A stretch of DNA of 64,000 bases from an uncultured Acidobacteriota bacterium (GTDB lineage Bacteria > Acidobacteriota > Thermoanaerobaculia > Multivoradales > JAHEKO01), in assembly GCA_963713825.1 (NCBI GenBank), contig CAVQNG010000025.1:608001-672000 (forward strand), in the 5' to 3' direction. The translations under genes were made by a program, and so were the position numbers. Below the pieces are notes generated by a model. The model saw only the letters and a list, made by a program, of their open reading frames with translations, was not told the origin of the DNA and did no database searches. Shown one piece after another: positions 57,584 through 64,000 of the stretch (positions within the stretch are counted from its first letter, which is position 1; the number at the start of each line of letters is the position of its first letter).

Positions 57584-58981
57584 ATGGCAGAGCAACGCGA
57601 TCTCGTCATCATCGGCAGTGGTCCTGGCGGCTACGTCGCCGCGATTCGTGCCGCACAGTTGGGCCTCGGTGTCACCGTGGTGGAGAAGGACCCCAAATTC
57701 GGCGGCACCTGCCTGCACCGAGGGTGCATTCCGACCAAGGCGCTTCTCCGCACGGCGGGCATGTTGGACGACATCCGGTCAGCGGAGAAGTTCGGGATCG
57801 AAGTGGCTGCGCCGAGCTTGGATCTGGACCGGGCTCAGGCATTCAAGCAGCAGGTCGTCGACAAGAGCGCCAAGGGAATCGAGTACCTGTTCAAGAAGTA
57901 CGGCGTCGAAGGTGTTCAGGGTAGGGGCCGGCTGGTCGGTAGCCATGAGGTCGAAGTGCGGGGTGAGACCGGCACGATCACATTCGGGGCCCGCAACATT
58001 CTGATCGCCACGGGCTCGATTCCACGCCAGTTGCCGTTTGTCTCTACAGACGGCGAGCGCGTCCTGAGCTCGGACGATGTTCTGGAGTTAACGACGATTC
58101 CTGAGTCGCTGGTGGTCCTGGGCGCGGGTGCCGTGGGCTGTGAGTTCGCCTCGATCTTCAATTCGTTCGGGTCTGAAGTGGTTCTGGTCGAGATGCTGCC
58201 TCGCGTGCTGCCTCTCGAGGACGAGGAGGTCTCGAAGCAGCTGCAGCGTTCGCTGAAGAAGAGGGGAATCAAGGTCCTCACTGGCAGTCGGTTGAAAGAT
58301 GTCGTGCCGACGGGGAGTGGGCTCGAGATTGGCGTCGAGAGGGAAAAGGGAGACGGCAAGCAGTTGTCTGCCGAGGCGCTGTTGGTGGCCGTCGGGCGAG
58401 CGCCAGTGACCTCGGATCTAGGACTGGAAGCGCTAGGAATCAAGCTCGATCGCGGCTACATCGAAGTCAACGATCTGATGCAGACCGACGTGCCCCACAT
58501 TTACGCCATCGGAGATGTCGTCAATACGCCATGGTTGGCCCATGTCGCGTCGGCCGAAGGCATCCTGGCCGTCGAGCATGTGGCGGGCCAGGAGGTGCGG
58601 CCGATCGACTACGATCGAATTCCGGCCGTCACCTACTGCGATCCGGAAGTAGCCAGTGTCGGCCTGACGGAATCGCAAGCCAAAGAGCGAGGCTACGACG
58701 TCGCGACTGGCAAGTTCCCGTTCACAGCGCTGGCCAAGGCAGCGATCGAGGGTCACACCGAAGGCTTCGTCAAGGTGGTTCGAGAGAAGCGCTACGACGA
58801 GCTCCTGGGAGTCCATATCATCGGCCGCCACGCCACCGACCTGATCGCCGAAGCCTGTGTCGCTCTGCAGGTCGAATCGACGACAGAGGAGTTGTTTCGA
58901 ACCATTCATGCTCATCCGACGCTGTCGGAGGCCGTCGCGGAGGCAGCGCATGCGGCCGTCGGGCATGCGATCCATATCTGA
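57584..58981 (+). CDS. lpdA: Dihydrolipoamide dehydrogenase (E3)
   Basis: GSGPGGY, GGTCLHRGCIPTK, GAGAVG, HAHPTLSE. Confidence 0.96.
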   Translation: MAEQRDLVIIGSGPGGYVAAIRAAQLGLGVTVVEKDPKFGGTCLHRGCIPTKALLRTAGMLDDIRSAEKFGIEVAAPSLDLDRAQAFKQQVVDKSAKGIEYLFKKYGVEGVQGRGRLVGSHEVEVRGETGTITFGARNILIATGSIPRQLPFVSTDGERVLSSDDVLELTTIPESLVVLGAGAVGCEFASIFNSFGSEVVLVEMLPRVLPLEDEEVSKQLQRSLKKRGIKVLTGSRLKDVVPTGSGLEIGVEREKGDGKQLSAEALLVAVGRAPVTSDLGLEALGIKLDRGYIEVNDLMQTDVPHIYAIGDVVNTPWLAHVASAEGILAVEHVAGQEVRPIDYDRIPAVTYCDPEVASVGLTESQAKERGYDVATGKFPFTALAKAAIEGHTEGFVKVVREKRYDELLGVHIIGRHATDLIAEACVALQVESTTEELFRTIHAHPTLSEAVAEAAHAAVGHAIHI

Positions 58982-59074
58982 TGGACCTGTGGCGAGCGGA
59001 TCGATTGGCGCTGGAATCGAAGCTGACCAGGAGCCGCGAATCGGGGAATCGAGTCGAGTAAGGGAGAGACCTAC

Positions 59075-60463
59075 ATGGCGACAGAAGTCATCATGCCCGA
59101 GATGGGCGAATCCATCGCCGAGGGCACCATCACGAAATGGCTGGTCCAGGTCGGAGAGCGAGTGGAGAGAGACCAGCCTTTGTTCGAGGTTTCGACCGAC
59201 AAGGTCGATGCCGAGATTCCCAGTCCGGCCTCCGGAACCCTCCTGGTGGTGCACCACGGGGAAGGTGCAACCGTTCAGGTCAATGAGCTGGTCGCCATCG
59301 TCGGGGAGCCTGGTGAGCAACCGGAGGCCCAACCGGTGGCGGCGCCGGCTGGAGTCGAGGCCCCGGTTGTCGAGGCCTCGGAGCCCATTGAGGCCGCGGT
59401 CGAACAACCTGCTCCCGTTGCGGAGCCCGCTCCGACGCAGCAGGTAGTGGTCGGCGAAGATAGTCAGCTTGTCGACAGAATTCGTCGGTTCTCGAGTCCA
59501 CTGGTCCGCAAGATGGCGGCTGCAGAGGGGGTCGATCTCTCGCAGATCCAGGGTACGGGAATCCAGGGACGGGTGACCAAGCAGGACATGCAGGAGTACT
59601 TGGAGCGCCGATCGGCGGCACCGCCTTCGACGGCAGCCCCACCTCCCGCTGCTCCGGCTTCGCCGATGCGCACGGCAGAAGTCGTCACAGCGGCTCGACG
59701 TGCGCCAGTCGGTGACTTTCAGGTCGCTGCCTACCACGAGGGGGACAACGTCGAGATCGAGCCGATGTCCAATATCCGTCGCCTGACGGCGTCTCATATG
59801 GTCTATTCCAAGGCCACTTCGGCGCACGTCAGCACGGTCTTCCACGTCGACCTGTCCAGAGTGGCCAAGGTGAGGGCCCGCGCCAAGCGAGGCTTCGCGC
59901 AGACCCACGGTACGAAGCTCACCTTCATGCCGTTCATCTTCAAGGCGGTGGCCAACGCGCTCACCGCCTTTCCAAATCTGAATTCGTCCATCGACGGCAC
60001 CAACATCGTGCACAAGAAGGACATCAACCTGGGTATGGCTGTCGCTCTCGATTGGGGCCTTCTGGTACCCGTCATCCGACACGCCGATCGGCTCAACCTC
60101 GTTGGCCTCGCGAAGACAGCCAACGATCTGGCCGAGCGCGCCCGAAGCAAGCGTCTGAGTCCGGAGGAAGTTCAGGGCGGCACTTTTACGGTGACAAACC
60201 CAGGAGTCTTCGGCTCGCTGTTCGGTACTCCCATCATCAATCAGCCCCAGGTGGCGATCCTGGGCATCGGGGCCATCGAGAAGCGTCCGGTGGTGGTGAA
60301 CGACGACGATGGTAACGACACCATCGCGATCAAGACCATGTGTTATTTCGCTCTGACCTTCGATCATCGCCTGGTCGACGGCGCCGAGGCCGACAGCTTC
60401 ATGAATCACCTCCGGCGAACCCTGCTGGAGGAGACCTGGTCGGAGCTCGATTCGTTTCAGTAG
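59075..60463 (+). CDS. 2-oxoacid dehydrogenase E2 (dihydrolipoamide acyltransferase, SucB/DlaT-like)
   Basis: Lipoyl domain STDKVD; E3-binding SPLVRK..GTG..GRVTKQD; GTFTVTN; DHRLVDG. Confidence 0.92.
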   Translation: MATEVIMPEMGESIAEGTITKWLVQVGERVERDQPLFEVSTDKVDAEIPSPASGTLLVVHHGEGATVQVNELVAIVGEPGEQPEAQPVAAPAGVEAPVVEASEPIEAAVEQPAPVAEPAPTQQVVVGEDSQLVDRIRRFSSPLVRKMAAAEGVDLSQIQGTGIQGRVTKQDMQEYLERRSAAPPSTAAPPPAAPASPMRTAEVVTAARRAPVGDFQVAAYHEGDNVEIEPMSNIRRLTASHMVYSKATSAHVSTVFHVDLSRVAKVRARAKRGFAQTHGTKLTFMPFIFKAVANALTAFPNLNSSIDGTNIVHKKDINLGMAVALDWGLLVPVIRHADRLNLVGLAKTANDLAERARSKRLSPEEVQGGTFTVTNPGVFGSLFGTPIINQPQVAILGIGAIEKRPVVVNDDDGNDTIAIKTMCYFALTFDHRLVDGAEADSFMNHLRRTLLEETWSELDSFQ

Positions 60464-60525
60464 CCGCGCCCTGGTCGAGCCCGTCGCGAGAGCACTCACG
60501 GAGCGCTCGAGACAACGGTCCACAG

Positions 60526-61218
60526 GTGAGAGGAATTACCCTGCGAGCTTTGGATTGGAGCTACCTCGGCACGCTGGACTACCGGCGATCGCTGGCGCTA
60601 CAGGAGTTACGCCGAGAGAAGCTTCGTGCCGGTCAGGCGAATGAAGCGTTGCTCCTACTCGAGCACCCTCACACCTACACGCTGGGCCGCAACGCCGATC
60701 GCGCCGACATCCTGGCCGGTTCGGATTGGTTGCAGTCCAGGGGAGTGAAAGTCGAGGAGTGTGACCGCGGCGGTCAGGTCACCTACCATGGTCCCGGCCA
60801 GCTCGTCGGCTATCCGATCCTCGACCTGAATCCAGATCGACGCGACCTGAGACGCTACGTGCGTGACTTGCAGGAAGTCCTGGTCCGTGTGTTGGCCGAG
60901 GTCGGCCTGGCCGCCGAGCCTCGTTCGAAGAGTCCTGAGATCGGCGTCTGGGTGGAGGGGAAGAAGATCGCCTCTCTCGGTGTTCATGTCAGTCGGTGGA
61001 TCACGACCCACGGATTCGCTCTCAACGTGAACACCGATCTGAGCTACTTTGCCGCCATTGTGCCGTGCGGCATCCAGGGAGTGGAGATGACGTCGGTCGC
61101 TGAGCTCACAGGAAGGAATCTGCCGCTGAAAGACCTGGCGGCCTTGTGTGTCCACCACACGGCCGAGGTCTTTCAACGTCGCCCGCTCGCCATGACTTCC
61201 GAAGAGTTGATGGGCTGA
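60526..61218 (+). CDS. lipB: Lipoyl(octanoyl) transferase
   Basis: LLEHPHTYTLGR, RGGQVTYHGPGQLVGYP, KIASLG, HGFALN, IVPCG. Start uncertain (60526-60550). Confidence 0.93.
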   Translation: MRGITLRALDWSYLGTLDYRRSLALQELRREKLRAGQANEALLLLEHPHTYTLGRNADRADILAGSDWLQSRGVKVEECDRGGQVTYHGPGQLVGYPILDLNPDRRDLRRYVRDLQEVLVRVLAEVGLAAEPRSKSPEIGVWVEGKKIASLGVHVSRWITTHGFALNVNTDLSYFAAIVPCGIQGVEMTSVAELTGRNLPLKDLAALCVHHTAEVFQRRPLAMTSEELMG

Positions 61219-61640
61219 TGACCTACCGGTTCGTCGAACATACGGCCGACGTCGGTGTCGAGCTCGAGGCGAGCAGCTACGAGGGATTGCTGTCCGAGGG
61301 TCTTTTGGCGCTCACTGACACTCTGACCGAGGTCGAGCGGGTGAGCCTGGAGATCGAGCTGTCCGTCGATCTCCGTGCGCCGAGTCGTGAGGATCTTTTG
61401 GTCGGTTGGCTCAACGAGCTGGTCTACCTCTTTGATTCGAAATCGGTGCTGCTGCGCCAATCGGACATCGGAGTCGGGAAAGAAGGCGGCGAGTGGCGTC
61501 TACGGGCAACGGTAGGCGGTGAGCGCTACGATCCTGAACGGCACCGTATCAAAACGCTGATCAAGGCGGTCACCTACCACCAACTGGCGGTGAGATCATC
61601 GACGTCTGGATGGCAGGCCCGAGTCGTCTTTGACATCTGA
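61218..61640 (+). CDS. Archease (RtcB activator)
   Basis: MTYRFVEHTADVG (HTAD), LVGWLNELVY, IKAVTYH, C-terminal VFDI; TGATG coupling to lipB; directly upstream of rtcB. Confidence 0.92.
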   Translation: MTYRFVEHTADVGVELEASSYEGLLSEGLLALTDTLTEVERVSLEIELSVDLRAPSREDLLVGWLNELVYLFDSKSVLLRQSDIGVGKEGGEWRLRATVGGERYDPERHRIKTLIKAVTYHQLAVRSSTSGWQARVVFDI

Positions 61641-61732
61641 TCCGGCGATACTTGCGGTAGTAGACCGACAGGACTAGCCTCTAGAGGACAGGCACGGCAA
61701 GACCAATCGTGTTCGGGTGGAGGATCGGATCG

Positions 61733-63169
61733 ATGAGAATCGAACAGGTCGATGAGTTCCGCTGGAGGATTCCCAAGCAGGGAAAGATGCAAGTCGATGG
61801 CCTGATCTTCGCGAGTGCAGCGATGATGAGCGACATCCGCCACGACCCATGCCTTCAACAAGTCGTCAACGTAGCTCATCTACCGGGGATTGTCGGGGCT
61901 TCCATGGCCATGCCCGATATCCACTGGGGCTATGGTTTTCCCATCGGTGGCGTCGCCGCAATGGACGGCAAGAAGGGTGTCGTCTCGCCGGGCGGTGTCG
62001 GCTACGACATCAACTGAGGCGTTCGCCTCTTGCGCTCAGGTCTGAGTCGCTCCGAAATCCAGCCCAAACTGAGGCACCTCGTGACCCGCCTCTATCAGAA
62101 CATCCCAACCGGCATCGGCAAGGGCCGTGGCGATCTGCGGTTGAATCGACAGGAGCTGACAGGGGTCATGACTCGAGGGGCGGCGTGGTGCGTCGACCGG
62201 GGGATGGGCTACGAAGAGGACTTGGAGTTCCTCGAGGAGAAAGGCTGTATCGAGGGAGCGCGGCCCGATCTGGTGACGGACAAGGCCTATCAACGAGGGC
62301 GAAGTCAGCTTGGATCGTTGGGCTCGGGGAATCACTTCGCGGAAATCCAGTATGTGGCTGAAATCTACGACGAAGTTGCAGCTACCGCTTTGGGCCTCTT
62401 CGAGGACCAGGTGACTCTGACGATTCACAGTGGATCGAGAGGCCTCGGTCACCAGGTCTGCACGGACCACCTCCGGGTGATGGTGGAAGCGGCGGCTCGG
62501 TACGGCATCGAGCTACCCGATCGTCAGCTCTGTTGCGCTCCCATTCAATCCGCGGAAGGACGCCATTACCTTGGTGCCATGTCGGCGGCCGCCAACTTCG
62601 CCTTCGCCAATCGGCAGGTCATGACGCACTGGGCTCGCGAGAGTTTCATGCAGACCCTGGGCCTGGGACCCGGCCGGGCTGGGCTCGACGTGGTTTACGA
62701 TGTCTGTCACAACATCGCGAAGTTCGAGACGTTCGAGCTCGACGGTAGGAGTCGACGCCTCTGCGTTCACCGCAAAGGAGCCACCCGGGCTTATCCACCC
62801 GGTCACCCGCAGACACCCGAGGCCTACAGGGAAGTCGGGCAGCCTGTATTGATTCCCGGGGATATGGGACGCTACTCCTATGTGCTCGTGGGAACCGAGA
62901 AAGCCTACCGTGAGACCTATGGCTCCACTTGTCATGGGGCGGGCAGAAGGCTCAGCCGCAAGCAGGCCAAGAAGCAGGCGAGAGGGAGAAGACTCTTGGA
63001 GGAGCTCGAAAATGAGGGTGTTGTGGTGATGGCCGCCGGAATGGGCACGGTAGCCGAGGAGATGCCCGAGGCATACAAAGACGTCTCGGTTGTGGTCGAC
63101 GTGGTTCAAGGCGCCGGGATCAGCCGCAAAGTCGCCCAACTGAAACCGATGGGAGTGATCAAGGGATGA
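61733..63169 (+). CDS. rtcB: RNA-splicing/repair ligase RtcB, 478 aa, with in-frame TGA (putative selenocysteine) at codon 95
   Basis: ORFs 61709-62017 and 62030-63169 are in the same frame, separated only by TGA 62015-62017: [81 protein letters not shown] at 61719-61723. Confidence 0.92.
62032..62050 (+). promoter_or_regulatory. Candidate bacterial SECIS element
   Basis: GCG-CUCA-[GGUC]-UGAG-U-CGC: 7-bp stem with a bulged U; the loop starts with G, 21 nt after the UGA. Confidence 0.78.
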
Positions 63170-64000
63170 GTGCCGAGAAACAGAGCGCCAGGTTCACTTC
63201 AGAGTCTATGGATGCGGCGGAGGCGACCGCTCCATCTTCTTCGGATCAACGAGCCGACGCGATTCTCGATCGCTGGCGGAGCGTGATTCCCGAGATCGAG
63301 TGGGCCGTGCAGGCGTCACTTATCGAACGGATCCGACGCCTCAAGAAGCAGCGAAAAGCCGTCATTCTGGCCCACAACTACCAGACGCCCGAGATCTTCT
63401 TTGGTGTCGCCGATTTCACCGGGGATTCGCTGGGTCTGGCGCGGCAGGGGTCCGAAACCGAGGCGGAGGTCATCGTCCTCTGTGGAGTCCACTTCATGGC
63501 GGAGACGGCGAAGATCTTGAGCCCAGAGAAGACGGTGCTCCTTCCCGACCAGGAGGCGGGTTGCTCCTTGGCCAGCTCATTAGCGGCCGGTGATGTGCGG
63601 CAGCTCCGCGAGCGCTATCCAGGAGTTCCCGTGGTGAGCTATGTGAATACTTCCGCGGCCGTCAAAGCGGAGTCCGATATCTGCTGTACCTCGGCGAACG
63701 CCGTGGAAGTGGTGCAGTCGCTCGATAGCGATCGGGTGATTCTTCTTCCGGACGAATACCTCGGCGACTACGTGGCGCGACACTCGGACGTGGAGATCAT
63801 TCGGTGGGAGGGCCGTTGCGAGGTCCATGAGCGCTTCTCTGCCGAGGAGGTGCGCGGCTATCGGCAGCAGCATCCTGGAATCCAGGTTCTGGCACACCCC
63901 GAATGTCCGAGCGACGTGCTGACGGAGGCGGATTTCGTCGGCTCGACCAGCGGCATGATTCGTCATCTCGAGAGCAGCCGGCCCGAGCGGGTCGTGCTGA
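63166..64000 (+). CDS. nadA: Quinolinate synthase, 5' part; runs off the right edge
   Basis: Manual translation from ATG 63166 (ATGA overlap with the rtcB stop): ILAHNYQ..GDSLGL..CGVHFMAETAK..AGCSLA..YVNTSA..CCTSANA..PDEYLG..CEVH..AHPEC. Confidence 0.93.
   Translation, partial: MSAEKQSARFTSESMDAAEATAPSSSDQRADAILDRWRSVIPEIEWAVQASLIERIRRLKKQRKAVILAHNYQTPEIFFGVADFTGDSLGLARQGSETEAEVIVLCGVHFMAETAKILSPEKTVLLPDQEAGCSLASSLAAGDVRQLRERYPGVPVVSYVNTSAAVKAESDICCTSANAVEVVQSLDSDRVILLPDEYLGDYVARHSDVEIIRWEGRCEVHERFSAEEVRGYRQQHPGIQVLAHPECPSDVLTEADFVGSTSGMIRHLESSRPERVVL

What the first reader, a model, noticed from the sequence alone, without database searches (positions are those of the whole stretch)
62032..62050. 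SECIS-like hairpin whose apex matches the E. coli fdhF SECIS
Seen: GCG-CUCA-GGUC-UGAG-U-CGC with apex CAGGUCUG, built from codons that look infrequent in this GC-rich window (TCA, GGT, AGT). Established (from memory): fdhF reads UGA CAC GGC CCA UCG GUU GCA GGU CUG CAC, with the same CAGGUCUG apex whose loop GU binds SelB. Here the GGU lies 21 nt after UGA versus 18 nt in fdhF, and the bulged U is on the 3' side. Inference: independent support that the UGA is recoded rather than a nonsense mutation, and a lead on SECIS geometry in this lineage.
Basis: partly seen in the sequence, partly recalled or inferred. Interest (0 to 1): 0.75.

Follow-up and report, generated by a model that had tools for sequence, protein, structure and literature searches.

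The report
SECIS hairpin of selenocysteine RtcB ligase
This short RNA hairpin follows a UGA 'stop' codon at the key metal-binding position of an RNA-repair ligase gene, is kept in relatives that share the UGA and is mostly lost in those with cysteine, so it likely makes the ribosome insert selenocysteine there, which would make the ligase RtcB a selenium enzyme.

Summary
The hairpin (62032-62050) is real and starts 14 nt after an in-frame UGA (62015-62017). That UGA replaces the Mn-bridging cysteine codon of the genome's only rtcB, which follows an archease gene. Alone the hairpin is not significant (z -1.6). Comparison makes it convincing: a G-loop hairpin follows 123 of 145 UGA-rtcB sequences but 9 of 83 Cys-rtcB sequences. 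The exact apex occurs in 50 of 145 versus 1 of 83 (a same-genus UGU gene). Synonymous codons are frozen (TCA in 80 of 84) and a variant register shows compensatory pairs. The genome has selA, selB, selD and tRNA-Sec. The CAGGUCUG match to E. coli fdhF and the 21 versus 18 nt spacing are confirmed, but the geometry is ordinary: spacing in this genome's other Sec genes runs 17-27 nt. The 3' bulged U is not conserved (7 of 82), fdhF's 5' U17 is absent, and GGT is not a rare codon. So: an ordinary bacterial SECIS that supports an uncatalogued selenoprotein, seleno-RtcB, absent from the 2025-2026 catalogues I searched. Sec insertion is inferred, not shown. This scan already noted seleno-RtcB in at least 13 genomes.

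The parts
62032..62050 (+). SECIS-like hairpin inside rtcB; 4-bp apex stem, GGUC loop at 62039-62042 (loop G and U at 62040-62041 correspond to fdhF G23/U24 shifted by one codon), 3-bp lower stem
   Evidence: Fold; enrichment in UGA orthologues, synonymous constraint and covariation
62015..62017 (+). In-frame UGA, residue 95, in the motif GYDIN-U-GVR; aligns with P. horikoshii Cys98
   Evidence: 26 of 110 homologous loci have TGA here and the other 84 have TGC/TGT
61733..63169 (+). rtcB, 478 aa when UGA95 is read through; RtcB RNA ligase with D92, H201, H232, H326, H401 intact; only rtcB copy found in the genome
   Evidence: Pfam PF01139 E 3e-175; PDB 2epg and 1uc2 matched over residues 3-478; single copy; catalytic columns invariant in 107 of 107
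61221..61640 (+). Archease gene (activator of RtcB) directly upstream
   Evidence: Pfam PF01951 E 4.5e-40; present in 22 of 24 UGA loci with enough upstream DNA
62016..62030 (+). Small hairpin overlapping the UGA; judged incidental
   Evidence: Seen; a similar fold in 54 of 145 UGA versus 49 of 83 Cys sequences

Best explanation
The hairpin is likely a working bacterial SECIS element: SelB would bind the G-U at its loop tip and deliver selenocysteinyl-tRNA to the UGA 21 nucleotides upstream, so that the gene is predicted to make one 478-residue RtcB RNA ligase with selenocysteine in place of the cysteine that bridges its two manganese ions. Shown here: the UGA position, the intact ligase frame and catalytic residues, the archease neighbour, the complete Sec machinery, and the link between hairpin and UGA across orthologues. 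Inferred: SelB binding, Sec insertion and activity of the Sec enzyme. Most speculative (about 40%): selenium is kept because it makes the oxidation-prone metal site less easily destroyed. The RNA constraint also appears to dictate the protein sequence at residues 102-105 (S-G-L-S).
For: UGA sits only at the Cys98-equivalent codon: 26 of 110 loci, each with exactly one internal stop, and 84 of 84 Cys loci have none. selA, selB, selD (itself with UGA) and tRNA-Sec are present, and tRNA-Sec is the only UCA-anticodon tRNA among 49. A hairpin with a G loop 16-24 nt downstream and at least 5 bp occurs in 123 of 145 UGA versus 9 of 83 Cys sequences. Mean fold energy of +13..+36 is -8.7 versus -3.7 kcal/mol, with no difference upstream. 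Among 84 UGA sequences coding S-G-L-S, Ser102 is TCA in 80, Gly103 GGT in 71, Leu104 CTG/TTG in 84 and Ser105 AGY in 84, while the codons between UGA and the stem vary freely. In 22 sequences picked by apex letters only, three outer pairs covary beyond 2000 shuffles. Over 141 distinct rows the structure beats 500 shuffles and all slid controls on % paired and covariation score. On the tree, 9 independent UGA/Cys pairs: the hairpin goes with UGA in about 5.5 and never the other way. This genome's FdhA, Rdx, MerB-like and HdrA-like Sec genes use GGUC(U) loops at 18, 21, 19 and 27 nt.
Against: No protein-level evidence. The hairpin alone is weak (-6.9 kcal/mol, above the -7.5 limit of the published model; -8.1 with flanks) and not significant against shuffles. 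A loose published-style SECIS rule passes 55 of 83 Cys controls and 668 of 1399 coding-like TGA sites in the genome. RNAalifold found no consensus structure over all 145 sequences. The tree test is small (median p 0.03, range to 0.25). Co-occurrence with selB does not discriminate: 13 of 14 UGA genomes versus 44 of 56 bacterial Cys genomes, p 0.44, and one UGA genome (G080) shows only a partial selA and no selB or tRNA-Sec over cut-off. 22 of 145 UGA sequences fail the short-hairpin rule. Engineered P. horikoshii RtcB with Sec98 cleaved itself (PMC4150793). 128 of the 154 UGA loci were found with a pattern that fixes the UGA and its flanking codons, so they are not an unbiased sample.
Confidence: 0.93

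Rival explanations
1. The UGA is read as Sec, but this hairpin is a passenger of conserved protein sequence and is not the signal.
For: The hairpin is weak on its own; two same-genus Cys (UGU) genes still carry it or a G-U variant of it; some UGA orthologues lack it.
Against: Synonymous positions are fixed exactly where pairing and the loop GU need them; with this genome's codon use the exact apex arises in 0.19% of 20,000 synonymous versions of the peptide; a second register keeps pairing through compensatory changes; the Cys genes that keep it are nested among UGA genes, as expected of recent reversions.
Confidence: 0.03
2. The UGA is a true stop: the gene is a pseudogene, or is split, with a second product restarting at the TTG at 62030.
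For: Table-11 ORF calling gives two ORFs; codon 5 after the UGA is ATG in 58 of 145 UGA sequences versus 6 of 83 Cys.
Against: The same codon is UGA across many lineages with no other stop and all catalytic residues kept; G-V-R-L between UGA and the supposed restart is conserved as amino acids with free third positions in the 26 loci not selected by pattern; a split would delete a ligand whose mutation abolishes activity (PMC9745838); it is the only rtcB found; a G at that codon's third position is needed for the stem, which explains the ATG excess.
Confidence: 0.02
3. The UGA is read through with Cys or Trp (changed genetic code or a suppressor tRNA), giving an ordinary RtcB.
For: Cys would restore the canonical active site and avoid the self-cleavage seen with engineered Sec-RtcB.
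Against: UGA ends lipB, archease and rtcB itself; the only tRNA with a UCA anticodon is tRNA-Sec; the other in-frame UGAs found sit in known selenoprotein families.
Confidence: 0.02

Closest known systems
E. coli fdhF SECIS
   Same: Identical 8-nt apex with a GGUC loop, inside the coding region shortly after UGA.
   Different: Loop 21 nt after UGA instead of 18; no bulged U on the 5' side (U17, which PMC8659212 calls essential in E. coli); no long lower stem down to the UGA.
Consensus bacterial SECIS model (as given in PMC13188914, Fig. 2A legend)
   Same: Loop 3-9 nt, G in the first two loop positions, stem of 4-16 bp, spacing 16-37 nt are all met.
   Different: Energy is marginal against the -7.5 kcal/mol limit (-6.9 alone, -8.1 with flanks).
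SECIS elements of this genome's FdhA, Rdx (SelW-like), MerB-like, HdrA-like, Prx and SelD genes
   Same: Short stems with G-rich loops; the Rdx and Prx genes have the same 21-nt spacing.
   Different: FdhA and Rdx use a 5-nt GGUCU loop closed by C-G; spacing ranges 17-27 nt.
Cys-type RtcB with archease (T. thermophilus TTHA1785, PDB 2epg; P. horikoshii PH1602, PDB 1uc2; human RTCB)
   Same: Full-length homology, all other metal and guanylylation residues, archease neighbour.
   Different: The bridging Cys codon is UGA with a SECIS; no natural Sec form is listed in the catalogues searched.
Engineered P. horikoshii RtcB U98 (PMC4150793)
   Same: Sec at the same position.
   Different: Artificial and SECIS-free; it cleaved itself, so natural seleno-RtcB must tolerate or avoid this.

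Membership tests
Bacterial SECIS (consensus model) | In the coding region, apical loop 16-37 nt after an in-frame UGA | tested here: met
   21 nt
Bacterial SECIS (consensus model) | [quoted passage not shown] | tested here: met
   GGUC loop, 4+3 bp
Bacterial SECIS (consensus model) | Free energy at or below -7.5 kcal/mol | tested here: inconclusive
   -6.9 for the 19-mer, -8.1 for 62025-62060
Bacterial SECIS (consensus model) | Conserved with UGA, lost with Cys | tested here: met
   123 of 145 versus 9 of 83; exact apex 50 of 145 versus 1 of 83
Bacterial SECIS (consensus model) | Binds SelB and is needed for read-through | not testable with these tools
   Needs binding and reporter assays
E. 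coli fdhF-type SECIS | Loop G23/U24 | tested here: met
   GU present, one codon further from UGA; GT at that place in 93 of 145 UGA versus 3 of 83 Cys sequences
E. coli fdhF-type SECIS | Bulged U17 on the 5' side of a stem starting 11 nt after UGA | tested here: not met
   No 5' bulge; stem starts 14 nt after UGA; the 3' bulge is not conserved
Rfam SECIS families | Match to a covariance model | tested here: not met
   No Rfam match at E<=10 in 61900-62200
RtcB RNA ligase (PF01139) | Full-length domain with Asp, four His and the bridging Cys | tested here: met
   D92, H201, H232, H326, H401 present; residue 95 is UGA in place of Cys
RtcB RNA ligase (PF01139) | GTP- and Mn-dependent RNA ligation | not testable with these tools
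   Needs purified protein
Selenoprotein | UGA aligned to a conserved Cys, and Sec machinery in the genome | tested here: met
Selenoprotein | Selenium shown in the protein | not testable with these tools
   Needs 75Se labelling or mass spectrometry

The most novel reading that the evidence does not exclude
RtcB is a widespread, uncatalogued selenoprotein family: a nucleic-acid ligase whose two catalytic manganese ions are bridged by selenolate, switched repeatedly between Sec and Cys across Acidobacteriota, Thermodesulfobacteriota, Nitrospirota and other phyla, with several separate SECIS solutions written into the same few codons, including a long, GU-less hairpin that does not fit the consensus model.
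Probability: 0.75. Interest if true: 0.8.

Novelty: new variant of a known kind. Interest (0 to 1): 0.68.

Why it matters
The hairpin itself is an ordinary SECIS, but it is the best sequence evidence that the UGA in rtcB is selenocysteine. The catalogued prokaryotic selenoproteins are mostly redox enzymes (PMC13188914); a ligase with Se as the bridge of a two-Mn site would be a non-redox use. RtcB's bridging cysteine is its known weak point: it is essential, oxidises, and is shielded by PYROXD1 in animals (PMC9745838, PMC12263435). Natural Sec and Cys versions within one genus allow a direct test of what selenium does for metal choice and oxidation resistance, and of how the protein avoids the self-cleavage seen with engineered Sec-RtcB. 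It would also tie RNA repair to selenium supply, and standard ORF calling cuts this gene in two.

Tried and rejected
Shuffle tests of the lone hairpin: not significant. fdhF likeness as evidence: the 8-mer is common. Rfam: no match. Loose SECIS rules: unspecific. My first hairpin classes (126 of 145 versus 4 of 83) were drawn from the UGA data and are partly circular, so I rely on the class-free rule, whose 16-24 nt limit was also chosen after seeing the data. An energy-only trait (<= -5 kcal/mol) in the tree pair test gave median p 0.06. selA/selB co-occurrence: uninformative, as 59 and 58 of 61 relatives have them and p 0.44 outside. Hairpin overlapping the UGA: not enriched. The 3' bulged U as a lineage feature: rejected. 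Viral contigs: no match to the UGA pattern. Sequencing runs: RNA runs hold only small shares; one contig from an RNA library matches 62002-62161 with no difference, but contigs cannot show transcription or translation. The IQ-TREE run did not finish; FastTree was used. A rule for the long hairpin class also passed 14 of 83 Cys controls. How public protein sets annotate the gene could not be looked up.

Full report
Observation. Window 62032-62050 folds into a 4-bp apex stem with a GGUC loop, a 1-nt 3' bulge and three more pairs, -6.9 kcal/mol; 17 of 200 shuffles fold as well. It starts 14 nt after a TGA at 62015-62017, and its loop starts 21 nt after it. E. coli K-12 fdhF has the same CAGGUCUG apex with the loop at 18 nt. 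The 8-mer is not rare: 284 copies in the genome. Codon use in long ORFs: TCA 6.3% and AGT 9.5% of Ser, GGT 21% of Gly, so two of the three codons named are uncommon. Rfam gives nothing. On the single sequence the hairpin is suggestive only.

Context. The TGA is codon 95 of a 478-residue RtcB (61733-63169) that aligns over residues 3-478 with T. thermophilus and P. horikoshii RtcB, residue 95 falling on Cys98. In P. horikoshii Cys98 bridges both Mn ions, its mutation abolishes all steps, and it has been seen oxidised (PMC9745838, passages); human RTCB is protected from such oxidation by PYROXD1 (PMC12263435, passages). D92, H201, H232, H326 and H401 are intact here and in 107 of 107 aligned homologues. 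An archease gene lies directly upstream. This is the only rtcB found in the genome. The genome has tRNA-Sec, selB, selA and a UGA-containing selD; tRNA-Sec is the only UCA tRNA of 49. The nearest named relatives are Acidobacteriota, class Thermoanaerobaculia.

Orthologues. Of 110 loci found by protein search (they include the window's own and two duplicates), 26 have TGA at this codon, 67 TGC and 17 TGT; each TGA gene has exactly one internal stop. 18 of these 26 carry the window's exact TCA-GGT-CTG-AG. Pattern searches added 130 loci, 128 usable; after removing duplicates there are 145 UGA and 83 Cys sequences. One Cys row (L117) is from G006, marked unpublished; no claim depends on it. The exact apex is in 50 of 145 versus 1 of 83. 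A class-free rule (G in the first two loop positions, loop 3-6 nt, at least 5 bp, 16-24 nt from the codon) is met by 123 of 145 versus 9 of 83; widening to 16-37 nt gives 126 versus 30, and the loosest published-style rule 141 versus 55. Mean energy of +13..+36 is -8.7 versus -3.7 kcal/mol; the upstream control does not differ and the downstream control differs the other way. The pattern-selected sequences fix the UGA and nearby codons, not the hairpin.

Selection on the RNA. In 84 UGA sequences coding S-G-L-S, the codons are TCA in 80, GGT in 71, CTG/TTG in 84 and AGY in 84: exactly what the A-U, C-G, U-A, C-G pairs and the loop GU require, while codons 1-4 after the UGA vary freely. With this genome's codon use, 0.19% of 20,000 synonymous versions give the exact apex and 7.6% give any of my hairpin classes. 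A second register (22 sequences chosen by apex letters) pairs 22 of 22 at +19:+29 (11 A-U, 11 U-A), 22 of 22 at +18:+30 and 19 of 22 at +16:+32, beyond 2000 shuffles; two other pairs were not beyond shuffles. The window's structure on 141 distinct rows gives 74.8% paired and covariation 0.234, above 500 shuffles and all slid controls, though these rows are related. RNAalifold found no single consensus for all 145. Residues 102, 103 and 105 are three of the four columns most tied to the UGA state.

Phylogeny. On a FastTree of 107 proteins with the codon and the next 12 residues masked, UGA needs 16 changes, 9 forced by well-supported branches. Two same-genus genes have TGT and keep the hairpin or a G-U variant, in genomes that still have selA, selB and tRNA-Sec: likely recent reversions. 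More distant Cys neighbours have mostly lost it. In 9 independent pairs the hairpin goes with UGA in about 5.5 and never the other way, median p 0.03. selB co-occurrence is 13 of 14 UGA genomes versus 44 of 66 Cys genomes (44 of 56 without archaea, p 0.44): consistent but not discriminating.

Geometry. Other UGA genes of known selenoprotein families in this genome place their loops at 17 (SelD), 18 (FdhA, GGUCU), 19 (MerB-like, GGUC), 21 (Rdx, GGUCU; Prx) and 27 nt (HdrA-like, GGUC) (10 of 13 fetched candidates matched a Pfam family). The consensus model allows 16-37 nt (PMC13188914 section 5), and a SelB hinge is proposed to absorb such differences (PMC4605307, passages). E. coli needs a bulged U17 on the 5' side (PMC8659212, passages); it is absent here. 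The 3' bulged base is C in 75 and U in 7 of 82, and can pair with G+17 in all. This genome's SelB C-terminus is closer to PDB 1wsu/1lva (M. thermoacetica; E 2e-11) than to 2pjp (E 1e-5) and has PPSP where 2pjp has PWWV; that 2pjp is E. coli and that these residues form the U17 pocket is recalled, not from a call. So the element works like the fdhF apex but is not an fdhF-type SECIS.

Mechanism. Shown: UGA at the bridging-ligand codon, intact enzyme, Sec machinery, hairpin tied to UGA. Inferred: SelB binds the loop GU and inserts Sec; the selenolate bridges the two metals; archease activates the enzyme. Speculative: Se protects the site from irreversible oxidation. Against: engineered P. horikoshii RtcB U98 cleaved itself (PMC4150793, section 17 and passages).

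Literature. RtcB is not among the 119 families of the 2026 review PMC13188914 (abstract, section 5, section 7 parts 1-2 of 3 with all of Table 1, word search), nor in deep-Sep PMC12013277 (word search of text and 4 supplements), BSepDB PMC13326102 (text and one supplement of about 4 million characters that may be cut) or SelCysML PMC13745706 (text only). NCBIfam 20.0 returned no selenoprotein RtcB model. Searches for RtcB with selenoprotein or selenocysteine listed only the engineered protein as relevant; the other hits were judged from listings. The 2025 selenoprotein-neighbourhood paper was not found in the library and is covered only through the review's table. Further searches; PMC10778597 and PMC7590224 were seen as passages. 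Subscription papers, bioRxiv supplements and RefSeq were not searchable. This scan's own notes hold 15 findings in at least 13 genomes on seleno-RtcB; they agree but are not independent support.

Verdict. A real, ordinary bacterial SECIS (0.93) whose value is to support a natural selenocysteine RtcB that the catalogues searched do not list. The geometry lead is not borne out. Novelty: new variant of a known kind. Interest 0.68.

Noticed in passing
L025:2780-2845 (Thermodesulfovibrionia); also L148, L149, L152, L159, L160, L165, L167, L185, L188, L206, L207, L217, L225, L232, L239, L249, L250: About 17-18 of 145 UGA-rtcB sequences lack the GGU apex and instead fold one long stem over +1..+63 (-23 to -36 kcal/mol; z -3.8 to -8.3 in the four tested) with a purine-rich loop near +28..+36. 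The L025 genome's fdhA has a normal GGUCU loop at 18 nt, so this may be a second SECIS architecture read by an ordinary SelB, or a switch with a weak short hairpin.
   Followed up: partly
L098 and L099 (G002, G001; same genus): Cys codon is TGT, one base from TGA, with the SECIS kept or slightly eroded and Sec machinery present: likely recent Sec-to-Cys reversions, a natural pair for experiments.
   Followed up: partly
window 62012-62017; L069: The Sec codon is at the RtcB intein splice junction (PMC4150793 names Cys98 as the junction; NCBIfam intein-RtcB model matches from residue 94; L069 looks intein-bearing). No UGA gene among the 26 appeared to carry an intein.
   Followed up: no
codon 5 after the UGA in orthologues: ATG in 58 of 145 UGA versus 6 of 83 Cys sequences; probably Ile replaced by Met to supply a stem G.
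   Followed up: partly
G000 C3:527109-527837 (L262): MerB-like (alkylmercury lyase) gene with two in-frame UGAs, each followed by a hairpin.
   Followed up: partly
G000 C3:516769-517398 (L268), C3:1183544-1184179 (L263), C3:1079339-1080019 (L266), C3:1019631-1020044 (L260): Further UGA genes with hairpins: GrdB-like, CMD/AhpD-like, thioredoxin-like and DsbA-like; the genome has a large selenoproteome.
   Followed up: partly
window 57584-64000: archease-rtcB lies between lipoamide dehydrogenase, E2 and lipB upstream and nadA downstream; the rtcB stop overlaps the nadA start.
   Followed up: no
G000 contigs C3/C29, C3/C7, C5/C21/C22, C5/C32, C14/C38: Identical stretches recur on different contigs, suggesting duplicated assembly pieces.
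   Followed up: no
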